Positions 39,125 through 39,570 of a stretch of 64,000 nt of DNA are shown here, one piece after another. Within the stretch, counting starts at the first letter, position 1. Each line of letters opens with the position of its first letter. Both the position numbers and the translations under genes were made by a program. Where the stretch lies: the IMG/VR virus record IMGVR_UViG_3300021425_003554. One strand, written 5' to 3'. The stretch comes from a virus. Its lineage: Duplodnaviria; Caudoviricetes. A model generated the notes under the pieces. The model was not told the DNA's origin and searched no databases. It saw nothing but the letters and a program-made list of their open reading frames with translations.

Positions 39125-39570
39125 GTGATAGGCAACAGTATCTATCCGACAGGCAAAATCAAAAAAATATTTAGGCAAACATAGCATCGCAACCAGTGAG
39201 CAAGGAAATGCGGCTAACAAGCGACAGGTGAATCCTTTGATGCAAACGGCAAAAAATGATGGGGCTCTTAGAAAAAGTTAAACCCCAGGTTTACCAAAAA
39301 CTATTATGCAAGGGTTTGGTAGGCTCGCGTTGTAATGAATGAGCAAATGGGTACAGCACAACCGCCCAACCACGGTAGCGATGTATAGTGACTGCGAACT
39401 CACCACAGGGTTCAAGTCGGTTCGGCTAGAAATAGCCGAATTGTGACTGCTCATCTACCACAGGGGACGCATAAATGCGTCGTTCCGCAAATGTAACTAC
39501 TGCGTAAAGCGTAAATTAAAAAAAAGAAACGAGCGTAAGCGAAGTTTCAGATGGCTGTAAGCCATCTTTG
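39125..39570 (+). ncRNA. putative large structured non-coding RNA (or structured origin region); family not recognised
   Basis: No ORF >=60 aa spans it. Stems: TTCGGCTA-GAAA-TAGCCGAA, GACGCA-TAAA-TGCGTC, AGATGGC-TGTAA-GCCATCT, GGGG/CCCC, an 11-bp helix with three G.U pairs (39288-39298/39315-39325 approx.). Also many GNRA loops and a 23-nt direct repeat. Confidence 0.55.
39388..39465 (+). repeat. two 23-nt imperfect direct repeats (GTGACTGC-N6/7-ACCACAGGG), period 55 nt
   Basis: GTGACTGCGAACTCACCACAGGG (39388-39410) and GTGACTGCTCATCTACCACAGGG (39443-39465), each followed by a hairpin. Confidence 0.8.

What the first reader, a model, noticed from the sequence alone, without database searches (positions are those of the whole stretch)
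39388..39482. Two-unit repeat-hairpin array inside the candidate ncRNA
Seen: GTGACTGC-[GAACTC]-ACCACAGGG and GTGACTGC-[TCATCT]-ACCACAGGG. Conserved 8- and 9-nt flanks enclose a variable 6-nt core, with 55-nt period, and each unit is followed by a hairpin. Inference: duplicated protein-binding modules, or a minimal guide cassette where constant flanks present a variable core, reminiscent in logic of box C/D or tigRNA units; iteron-like DNA sites are another option.
Basis: partly seen in the sequence, partly recalled or inferred. Interest (0 to 1): 0.65.

Follow-up and report, generated by a model that had tools for sequence, protein, structure and literature searches.

The report
Twin-box modules of a phage RNA
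The two repeated units are real and belong to a large, knotted non-coding RNA common in uncultured marine T4-like phages. Their 6-letter "cores" are structural rather than guides, but the 7-letter word after each core is always the same in both units and changes from phage lineage to lineage, as if the RNA grips two copies of a partner that is still unknown.

Summary
Observation confirmed: GTGACTGC-N6-ACCACAGGG occurs at 39388-39410 and 39443-39465 (+), 55 nt apart, with a hairpin after each unit.

The units lie in the 3' domain of a roughly 445-nt structured RNA (about 39128-39568, + strand). More than 120 IMG/VR phage contigs carry relatives.

The cores GAACTC and TCATCT are invariant in 61 relatives. 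Core 1 is the 5' strand of a 6-bp stem (39396-39401 with 39408-39413) that closes the hexaloop ACCACA. The GU that opens unit 1 ends a covarying pseudoknot. The G that opens unit 2 ends the middle hairpin.

What does vary is the 3' box, ACCACAG here. About 20 different words occur across lineages, and the word is always the same in both units. I found no partner for it inside the RNA, in the flanks or in the phages' own contigs.

In distant relatives the 5' third of the RNA is the orphan Rfam motif Polynucleobacter-1 (RF01718). The window itself does not match that model.

Most likely reading: the scaffold displays one word twice for an outside partner. Function is unknown.

This scan has already reported the same "twin-box RNA" on other DNA. 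I reached the reading independently before seeing those notes.

The parts
39093..39121 (+). Possible promoter: TTCACC, 17 nt, TATATA. Relatives have TTGACC-17-TATATA or TTGACC-15-TATAAA.
   Evidence: Conserved block upstream of the RNA in the alignment. The consensus scan did not call it. Inferred only.
39128..39568 (+). The whole structured non-coding RNA, about 445 nt. Its ends are inferred, not mapped.
   Evidence: Conserved from about 39165 to 39570 in dozens of contigs. For 49 tested pairs, 94.7% of cells are paired against 34-39% when the partners are slid. G-U 473 against A-C 77. No Rfam family matches.
39184..39243 (+). 5' multibranch closed by GCAUC (39184-88) with GAUGC (39239-43). 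It contains the hairpin AAGGA (39202-06) with UCCUU (39233-37).
   Evidence: GCAUC/GAUGC changes to GCGUC/GACGC and ACAUC/GAUGU. Pairs 39203-39236 and 39204-39235 are the strongest covarying pairs.
39261..39286 (+). Hairpin S1: GGGG (39261-64) with CCCC (39283-86).
   Evidence: 99.7% paired. Pair 39262-39285 is G-C in 45 and A-U in 41 sequences (helix 1).
39288..39325 (+). Hairpin S2, whose loop (39302-39311) forms the pseudoknot.
   Evidence: 11 pairs, 10 with changes on both sides, 96.8% paired (helix 2).
39382..39389 (+). 3' strand of the pseudoknot, pairing with loop bases 39303-39310. It includes the GU that opens unit 1.
   Evidence: 8 pairs, 6 with changes on both sides, 98.9% paired (helix 3). 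Examples: AUUGUGU/ACACAAU, AUUCAAUC/GAUUGAAU, AUCAUGUG/CACAUGGU. The same pseudoknot is kept with a wholly different sequence in L094, AUUGGAUU/AAUCCAAU.
39348..39368 (+). Hairpin S3, (U)GGG...CCC(A), with the 13-nt loop UACAGCACAACCG. This is the most conserved element of the family.
   Evidence: The closing pair is C-G in 60 and U-A in 31 sequences (helix 4).
39369..39376 (+). Mini-hairpin S4 with a tetraloop (CACG here; GAAA, GAGA, GCAA, UACG in relatives).
   Evidence: Both pairs covary and are 100% paired (helix 5).
39388..39413 (+). Unit 1: GU (end of the pseudoknot), GACUGC, then a stem-loop. Core GAACUC (39396-39401) pairs with GGGUUC (39408-13). The hexaloop ACCACA is 39402-07. Word X1 is ACCACAG, 39402-08.
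   Evidence: The single-sequence fold gives this 6-bp stem. A register-free scan of 92 relatives finds a stem closing the X1 loop in nearly all, with compensatory variants. The inner four pairs are 88% paired on the MAFFT alignment (helix 6).
39418..39443 (+). Middle hairpin M. Its last pair, C39418-G39443, uses the first G of unit 2.
   Evidence: 10 pairs, 99.1% paired. Pair 39418-39443 is C-G in 72 and U-A in 13 sequences. Pair 39424-39437 is G-C in 68 and U-A in 21 (helix 7).
39443..39465 (+). Unit 2: G (end of M), UGACUGC, core UCAUCU, word X2 = ACCACAG (39457-63), GG. X2 sits in the single-stranded junction between M and T.
   Evidence: No conserved stem closes X2. Pairing of X2 or X1 with UUGUG (39441-45) has no covariation support.
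39466..39481 (+). Hairpin T: GACGCA, UAAA, UGCGUC.
   Evidence: The closing pair varies as G-C, U-A, A-U and C-G among relatives (helix 8).
39526..39567 (+). Two 3' hairpins: GAAAC (39526-30) with GUUUC (39544-48), and AGAUGGC (39549-55) with GCCAUCU (39561-67). An A-run and three GCGUAA(A/G) motifs (39501-39540) precede them.
   Evidence: The last hairpin varies as GAUGGC/GCCAUC, GAUGAC/GUCAUC and GAUGGC/GCCGUC; the U-G pair in the last form is possible only on the + strand. No U-tract terminator.
38662..39087 (-). Neighbour: stand-alone GIY-YIG nuclease, 141 aa. The probable start is the ATG at 39069.
   Evidence: Pfam SegE_GIY-YIG, 2.6e-38. It is adjacent to the RNA in nearly all loci, divergent in this lineage and upstream on the same strand in the RF01718 lineage. 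Homologues in Syn9, phiN3, a Cellulophaga phage and Melnitz have no such RNA gap next to them.
39591..40364 (+). Neighbour: ORF near ATE_C/GNAT protein clusters. The conserved start MQLLFDH is at 39591; the ORF listing starts the ORF at 39573.
   Evidence: It starts 15-18 nt after the estimated end of the last hairpin in about 50 of 61 distinct loci. No Pfam hit. The Atlas places it near clusters in which 16-100% of members carry ATE_C. It is absent downstream of the RNA in the RF01718 lineage.

Best explanation
The two units are paralogous 'twin-box' modules in the conserved 3' domain of a roughly 445-nt pseudoknotted non-coding RNA. The RNA is transcribed from the + strand and is found in uncultured marine and freshwater T4-like phages.

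Each unit starts where a helix ends: the pseudoknot for unit 1 and hairpin M for unit 2. Each then has an invariant GAC(U), a unit-specific core, a pyrimidine run (CUC or UCU) and a 6-8-nt word X, which is ACCACAG here.

The cores are architecture, not guides. Core 1 pairs with the bases after X1, so X1 is shown as a hexaloop. X2 is shown in the junction between two hairpins.

X is the only part that differs freely between lineages, and the two copies always carry the same word.

Inferred working: the invariant scaffold presents one specificity word twice, so that the RNA binds an outside partner at two equivalent sites. That partner is most likely a complementary nucleic acid not encoded next to the locus, for example a host RNA, or two molecules of it. 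X would set which partner is bound.

Shown here: the anatomy, the strand, the conservation, the in-step change of X and the absence of a partner in cis. Inferred: that X pairs in trans, and with what.
For: Units and spacing. Conservation in 61 to 88 and then more than 120 viral contigs.

Structure: 49 pairs are 94.7% paired against 34-39% when slid, and 30 pairs have changes on both sides. This includes the pseudoknot that ends in the GU of unit 1 and hairpin M that ends in the G of unit 2.

Strand: 473 G-U cells against 77 A-C cells.

Core 1 stem with compensatory variants.

Cores invariant among close relatives.

X1 equals X2 in 13 word types of this lineage and about 20 across all lineages. 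On a tree built without the X columns, X changes at least 12 times in each unit. Positions 1-3 match in 88 of 92 tips as aligned. In the other four tips (the GUGAUG/AUGAUG group) the aligned columns are one base out of register, and the same word is present in both units when read directly.

No complement to X was found within -420 to +420 nt or -600 to +1500 nt.

The same architecture (pseudoknot, GUGAC, word, hairpin, GUGAC, same word) occurs in RNAs whose 5' third is RF01718.
Against: No partner for X has been found. X and its complement are not enriched in the flanks or in five long phage contigs with different X words. Identity rather than complementarity of two short boxes can also be kept by a protein dimer or by short-patch gene conversion. 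The independent-pair tests have only 3-4 well-supported contrasts per position; all are concordant but each is too few for p < 0.05. There are no expression data, so the RNA ends and any processing are unknown. No cultured phage carries the RNA.
Confidence: 0.5

Rival explanations
1. Twin protein-binding sites. A phage or host RNA-binding protein, as a dimer or two protomers, reads the two boxes, and X co-evolves with that protein. The adjacent GIY-YIG protein or the ATE_C-like protein would be candidates.
For: Identical rather than complementary boxes are what a homodimer would select. The GIY-YIG gene is next to the RNA in nearly all loci despite a change of orientation. No nucleic-acid partner was found.
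Against: About 20 very different words (ACCACAG, AGUCAAG, AGGAUAAU, CGUGAUG and others) would need a protein whose specificity is rewritten often. The GIY-YIG protein stays 54-81% identical across loci that carry different words. It also occurs without the RNA in cultured phages. The ATE_C-like ORF is missing in whole lineages.
Confidence: 0.2
2. Cis-acting leader. The RNA is the long 5' untranslated region of the downstream ATE_C-like gene and controls it, with the two units acting as tandem sensor or operator elements.
For: A possible promoter lies upstream and there is no terminator. The ORF starts 15-18 nt after the estimated end of the last hairpin in about 50 of 61 loci. Weinberg et al. 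rated RF01718 as possibly cis-regulatory.
Against: The RNA is kept where that gene is absent, displaced by 0.9-1.7 kb, or on the other side (L027, L034, L046, L057, L008, L092, L095, and the whole RF01718 lineage). A size of 445-525 nt with a pseudoknot is far beyond known leaders. A lineage-specific word kept identical twice is not explained.
Confidence: 0.13
3. No shared partner. X1 and X2 stay alike through short-patch gene conversion or slippage between the two units, and the word itself is functionally loose loop sequence.
For: The units share 8 nt on the 5' side that could seed conversion. No partner has been found.
Against: Conversion tracts would have to stop within a few nt every time. 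The cores immediately 5' of X (GAACUC against UCAUCU) stay different and conserved in all lineages. In distant lineages the shared 5' flank is much shorter, yet X still matches.
Confidence: 0.1
4. DNA-level direct repeats (iterons or operators) bound by a DNA-binding protein, for example at a replication origin.
For: There are two identical direct repeats about five helical turns apart, in a divergent intergenic region.
Against: There are only two copies. Spacing varies among relatives. The sequence around and between the repeats evolves by compensatory base-pair changes with a 6:1 excess of G-U over A-C, which is an RNA signature. X1 lies in the loop of a covarying stem.
Confidence: 0.03
5. 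One reading: constant flanks present a variable 6-nt core that acts as a guide, in the manner of box C/D or tigRNA.
For: The two cores differ from each other.
Against: The cores are invariant in 61 relatives. Core 1 is a covarying helix strand. There is no Nop, fibrillarin or Tas-like neighbour and no snoRNA-type Rfam hit in the gap.
Confidence: 0.02

Closest known systems
Polynucleobacter-1 RNA motif (Rfam RF01718; Weinberg et al. 2010, Genome Biol 11:R31, PMC2864571)
   Same: RNAs that carry RF01718 as their 5' third continue into the same S1, S2-pseudoknot, GGGUACAGC..AACCGCCC hairpin, twin-unit and 3' hairpin domain as the window RNA (L094, L104, L125, L163). They also lie next to the same small GIY-YIG gene. 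[quoted passage not shown] That this family is the GIY-YIG gene is my inference; I did not test it. Function is unknown in both cases.
   Different: The window RNA gives no RF01718 hit even at E <= 10. Its 5' domain is shorter and different. The Rfam model covers only 141 nt and does not include the twin units, the pseudoknot or the conserved hairpin. Here the GIY-YIG gene is divergent instead of upstream on the same strand.
Large 'ornate' orphan RNAs of phages and bacteria (ROOL RF03087, GOLLD RF01998)
   Same: Size class (more than 400 nt), many covarying helices with a pseudoknot, occurrence in phages, and unknown function. This comparison rests on general knowledge of those families.
   Different: No sequence or structure match to either model. 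Those RNAs are not known to carry a lineage-variable word repeated twice.
Guide-bearing RNAs with two short recognition segments (IS110 bridge RNA loops; box C/D and tigRNA dual guides)
   Same: A conserved scaffold presents short, lineage-specific single-stranded segments in loops. This is a resemblance in logic only.
   Different: In those systems the two guides differ from each other and are complementary to known targets, and a dedicated effector (recombinase, Nop-domain protein) is encoded alongside. Here the two words are identical, no target is known, and the only constant neighbour also exists without the RNA.
'Twin-box / twin-word structured RNA' noted earlier in this scan (unpublished AI notes, e.g. 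e1-3440727, e1-5745540, e1-5683085)
   Same: Same family, same anatomy and same open question. Those notes were read only after my own analysis.
   Different: They concern other genomes. This report adds how each unit is built in this window: the X1 hexaloop closed by core 1, and X2 in the M-T junction.

Membership tests
Polynucleobacter-1 RNA (RF01718) | Covariance-model score at or above the gathering score of 37 bits | tested here: not met
   No RF01718 match in window 38000-41000 at E <= 10. Relatives L094, L104, L163 and L125 score 48-96 bits.
Polynucleobacter-1 RNA (RF01718) | Lies beside the GOS11034 / PSSM2_218-like gene (taken here to be the small GIY-YIG gene) | tested here: inconclusive
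   The GIY-YIG gene is adjacent, but on the opposite strand (divergent) in the window. It is upstream on the same strand in loci that carry RF01718. I did not test that GOS11034 is the GIY-YIG family.
Extended family sharing the 3' domain (not yet a curated family) | GGGUACAGCNNAACCGCCC hairpin, followed by the pseudoknot 3' strand, GUGAC unit, word, hairpin, GUGAC unit, same word | tested here: met
   Window. Relatives including RF01718 carriers.
Box C/D sRNA or TIGR-Tas tigRNA guide units | Variable guide (core) between constant boxes, differing among relatives | tested here: not met
   The cores GAACTC and TCATCT are identical in all 61 contigs with the flanks.
Box C/D sRNA or TIGR-Tas tigRNA guide units | Partner protein with a Nop or fibrillarin-type domain encoded nearby; C (RUGAUGA) and D (CUGA) boxes | tested here: not met
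   Pfam scan of nine neighbouring ORFs finds none. The only C/D-type Rfam hits are chance-level and lie outside the gap. There are no RUGAUGA/CUGA pairs in the units.
Iterons / DNA direct-repeat operators | Several phased duplex repeats, with no constraint at the RNA level | tested here: not met
   Two copies only. Spacing varies among relatives. There is compensatory covariation and G-U asymmetry around and inside the units.
ROOL / GOLLD / HEARO and other curated large RNAs | Match to the Rfam covariance model | tested here: not met
   No match at E <= 10.
Riboswitch or other cis-regulatory leader of the downstream ORF | Constant linkage to the regulated gene | tested here: not met
   The ORF follows directly in about 50 of 61 loci of this lineage, but it is absent, displaced or on the other side elsewhere.
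RNA-guided nuclease system (RNA plus GIY-YIG) | The nuclease depends on, or co-occurs only with, the RNA, and the guide is complementary to a target | tested here: not met
   Homologues of the GIY-YIG protein occur in 563 cultured-phage records. The four regions I inspected (Melnitz, Syn9, phiN3, a Cellulophaga phage) have no large non-coding gap beside the gene. The RNA sequence matches no record in the cultured-phage collection. No target for X was found. Biochemical dependence cannot be tested with these tools.

The most novel reading that the evidence does not exclude
The twin identical words are guides. The RNA would be the specificity subunit of a ribonucleoprotein, with the adjacent domain-less GIY-YIG nuclease or another effector. 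The complex would recognise a short sequence present twice, for example on both strands of an inverted repeat, in host or rival-phage nucleic acid. That would be a new class of RNA-guided nuclease or sponge encoded by lytic phages.
Probability: 0.04. Interest if true: 0.95.

Novelty: new variant of a known kind. Interest (0 to 1): 0.6.

Why it matters
Large structured RNAs of unknown function are rare, and several have turned out to be new machines. This one is abundant in uncultured aquatic T4-like phages. Its only published trace is a 141-nt orphan motif from 2010.

The twin-box feature gives the family a concrete handle that can be tested. A short word is held identical in two display sites while it changes between lineages. 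That is the signature of a specificity element, so finding what the word touches should reveal the function.

For this finding specifically, the result corrects where the variable element sits. It is the 3' box, not the 6-nt core. It also shows how each copy is displayed.

Tried and rejected
1. Rfam on the gap and flanks at E <= 10: nothing relevant. ARAGORN: no tRNA or tmRNA.

2. blastn of the gap, and of a relative's full RNA (L094), against 50,697 cultured phage records: no match.

3. X2 or X1 pairing with UUGUG (39441-45): 91-93% paired, but no covariation beyond the shuffles, and the pairs break when X changes.

4. Outer GACU/AGUC helix around unit 1: no covariation support, and it conflicts with the well-supported last pair of hairpin M.

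5. Core 2 (GCUCAU) pairing with either UGAGC segment (39197-201 or 39340-44): the partner segment is missing or unchanged when core 2 changes.

6. A complement of X anywhere in the RNA or within -600 to +1500 nt: no consistent site.

7. X resembling one strand of the RF01718 closing helix or of hairpin M: seen in some lineages but not consistent.

8. Enrichment of X or its reverse complement in the flanks of 170 loci, in the 64-kb window (four extra ACCACAGG, all in coding sequence with no shared context), and in five 71-197-kb contigs with different words: none.

9. Reading the complement of X by eye as an anticodon loop, a -35 box or an anti-SD-like site: each fits only some words, so I dropped it.

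10. Scan of cellular genomes for the conserved hairpin: 38 hits, roughly what I estimate chance would give for 17 specified bases in that collection. Only 4 are real, and all are short contigs binned into unrelated MAGs.

11. A search for further pseudoknots by stacked covariation: nothing beyond the helices listed.

Full report
OBSERVATION

GTGACTGCGAACTCACCACAGGG is at 39388-39410 and GTGACTGCTCATCTACCACAGGG at 39443-39465, both on the + strand and 55 nt apart. With up to three mismatches the pattern is expected 0.14 times per window, and these are its only matches.

They lie in the 485-nt gap between two genes. On the left is a stand-alone GIY-YIG nuclease gene (38662-39087, - strand; Pfam SegE_GIY-YIG, 2.6e-38). 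On the right is an ORF of unknown family on the + strand. The window is a T4-like myovirus, with a baseplate hub and tail lysin, and its nearest cultured relative is Methylophilales phage Melnitz.

An exact-pattern scan of IMG/VR found the flanks in 61 contigs. In every one of them the cores are GAACTC and TCATCT.

Relaxing the pattern to allow any core gave 88 contigs with the two-unit architecture. These include very divergent lineages.

THE UNITS ARE PART OF A LARGE STRUCTURED RNA

Homology among relatives runs from about 39165 to 39570. I aligned 92 distinct sequences covering 39254-39490 (alignment A1) and tested a structure of 49 pairs.

- 94.7% of cells are paired, against 34-39% when every 3' partner is slid by 1-3 columns.
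- 30 pairs show changes on both sides.
- No shuffle out of 500 reached the observed values.

The supported helices are:

- S1: 39261-64 with 39283-86.
- S2: 39288-98 with 39315-25.
- A pseudoknot between the S2 loop (39303-10) and 39382-89, 98.9% paired with 6 of 8 pairs covarying.
- S3: 39348-51 with 39365-68, with an invariant 13-nt loop.
- A tetraloop mini-hairpin: 39369-76.
- The middle hairpin M: 39418-27 with 39434-43.
- Hairpin T: 39466-71 with 39476-81.

Upstream, a multibranch is closed by GCAUC/GAUGC (39184-88 with 39239-43), which also covaries. Across the 49 pairs, G-U cells outnumber A-C cells 473 to 77. The + strand is therefore the RNA strand.

A conserved TTGACC-like box followed by a TATA(T/A)A box lies upstream (39093-39121 in the window). 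This suggests a start near 39128, but it is an inference: the consensus scanner does not call it. There is no intrinsic terminator.

HOW EACH UNIT IS BUILT

The '8-nt 5' flank' is not one element.

- In unit 1, the first two bases (G39388, U39389) are the last pairs of the pseudoknot (helix 3).
- In unit 2, the first base (G39443) pairs with C39418 as the last pair of hairpin M. That pair is C-G in 72 sequences and U-A in 13 (helix 7).

An invariant GACU follows in both units.

Core 1 (GAACUC, 39396-39401) pairs with GGGUUC (39408-39413). A register-free scan of the 92 relatives finds a stem around this loop in nearly all of them, with compensatory forms:

- GAACUC/GGGUUC (47 sequences)
- GAACUC/GAGUUU
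- GAUACA/UGUAUC
- GAUAC/GUAUC
- ACUCA/UGGGU
- ACUCA/UGAGU
- UACUCG/CGGGUA

Unit 2 has no equivalent stem. Its word lies in the single-stranded junction between M and T.

WHAT REALLY VARIES

Among more distant relatives, the word after the CUC/UCU run changes. Examples are ACCACAG, GCCACAG, AGCACAU, AGUACA(C/G), ACUACAAG, ACCACAU, ACGUGAUG, ACAUGAUG and AGAUGAU. In the most divergent lineages the words include AGUCAAG, UGUCAAG, UGUGAAG, GGUGAAG, UGCCAAG, AGGAUAAU, AGGAAAUA and GACAUGU. In each genome the two units carry the same word.

On a tree built without the word columns, the word changes at least 12 times in each unit. The first three positions agree in 88 of 92 tips as aligned. The other four tips belong to the GUGAUG/AUGAUG group, where the aligned columns are one base out of register; read directly, both units carry the same word. 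Independent-pair tests give only 3-4 well-supported contrasts per position. All are concordant, but each is too few for significance alone.

The cores next to the word stay different between the two units and conserved across lineages. This argues against simple gene conversion.

THE SEARCH FOR THE WORD'S PARTNER

I found no partner.

- Pairing with UUGUG (39441-45) has no covariation support.
- No complement occurs consistently within the RNA or nearby.
- Neither the word nor its complement is enriched in the flanks of 170 loci.
- Neither is enriched in the window.
- Neither is enriched in five long contigs that carry different words.

RELATION TO KNOWN FAMILIES

The window gives no Rfam hit. 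In four divergent relatives, however, Rfam RF01718 (Polynucleobacter-1 RNA) scores 48-96 bits about 110 nt upstream of the conserved hairpin. Reading L094 through shows the same order of parts: S1, S2 with a pseudoknot of entirely different sequence (AUUGGAUU/AAUCCAAU), the hairpin, the two units, and the 3' hairpins.

Weinberg et al. (2010) listed this 141-nt motif as an orphan. Their supplement notes that most examples lie downstream of a gene family with possible homology to cyanophage P-SSM2 gene 218. I take that family to be the GIY-YIG gene, but I did not test this.

The window RNA is therefore a divergent member of a larger family. It has a different 5' domain, and only a fragment of the family is catalogued. 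No other paper in the library mentions the motif.

NEIGHBOURS

The GIY-YIG gene is next to the RNA in nearly all loci. It is divergent in this lineage and upstream on the same strand in the RF01718 lineage. However, homologues occur in 563 cultured-phage records. The four regions I inspected (Syn9 gp202, phiN3, a Cellulophaga phage and Melnitz) have no comparable non-coding gap beside the gene. The RNA sequence itself matches no cultured-phage record. The protein therefore does not need the RNA.

The downstream ORF starts 15-18 nt after the estimated end of the last hairpin in about 50 of 61 loci of this lineage. It sits near ATE_C/GNAT clusters in the protein atlas. It is absent, displaced or on the other side elsewhere.

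The family appears confined to phages. Of 38 pattern hits in cellular genomes, only four are real, and all four are short contigs binned into unrelated MAGs.

READING

Shown:

- The units are real.
- They are twin modules of a + strand, pseudoknotted RNA.
- The cores are structural.
- The 3' word is lineage-specific and kept identical in both copies.
- There is no partner in cis.

Inferred, at roughly 0.35-0.4: the scaffold displays one specificity word twice, so that it can bind an outside nucleic acid at two equivalent sites.

EARLIER NOTES OF THIS SCAN

After my own analysis I looked up earlier notes. The same family has been reported many times on other DNA as a 'twin-box' or 'twin-word' RNA, with the same closest known family and the same open question. 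My reading agrees with those notes and was reached independently. The first look-up gave only titles of neighbouring notes.

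Noticed in passing
window 39591-40364 (+): The ORF directly after the RNA has no Pfam hit. The protein atlas places it beside viral and bacterial clusters in which 16-100% of members carry ATE_C (aminoacyl-tRNA-protein transferase, GNAT/FemAB-like). Its conserved start is MQLLFDH at 39591, not the ATG at 39573.
   Followed up: partly
window 38662-39087 (-): The 141-aa GIY-YIG protein is a bare catalytic domain. It is widely mislabelled 'NAD synthetase' in phage records (PHROG 447), and in Melnitz and Syn9 it lies near nrdB. It may be the counterpart of a small T4-type host-DNA endonuclease rather than a homing enzyme.
   Followed up: partly
window 39501-39540 (+): The motif GCGUAA(A/G) occurs three times around an A8 run (CUGCGUAAAGCGUAAA ... 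GAGCGUAAGCG). UGCGU could also pair with the 5' strand of hairpin T, so an alternative fold or a protein site is possible.
   Followed up: no
window 39128-39180 (+): AGGCAA occurs three times at the presumed 5' end of the RNA (UAGGCAAC, CAGGCAAA, UAGGCAAAC).
   Followed up: no
L006, L019, L033, L035, L043, L059, L092 (relatives): In several relatives, 1.1-2.6 kb of extra DNA sits between the GIY-YIG gene and the RNA. In L008, L092 and L173, 0.7-1.4 kb sits between the RNA and the ATE_C-like ORF. Both edges of the RNA gene look like insertion hot spots.
   Followed up: no
L095, L097, L150 (relatives): Here a 29-31% identical ATE_C-like gene lies divergent upstream of the RNA, where the GIY-YIG gene lies in the window. 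The GIY-YIG gene is about 3 kb further away.
   Followed up: no
L196, L212, L214, L215 (genome contigs): Short contigs that carry this phage RNA are binned into MAGs labelled Neomarinimicrobiota, Pacearchaeota, Pseudobdellovibrionaceae and Betaproteobacteria. These are probably phage contigs that were mis-binned.
   Followed up: partly
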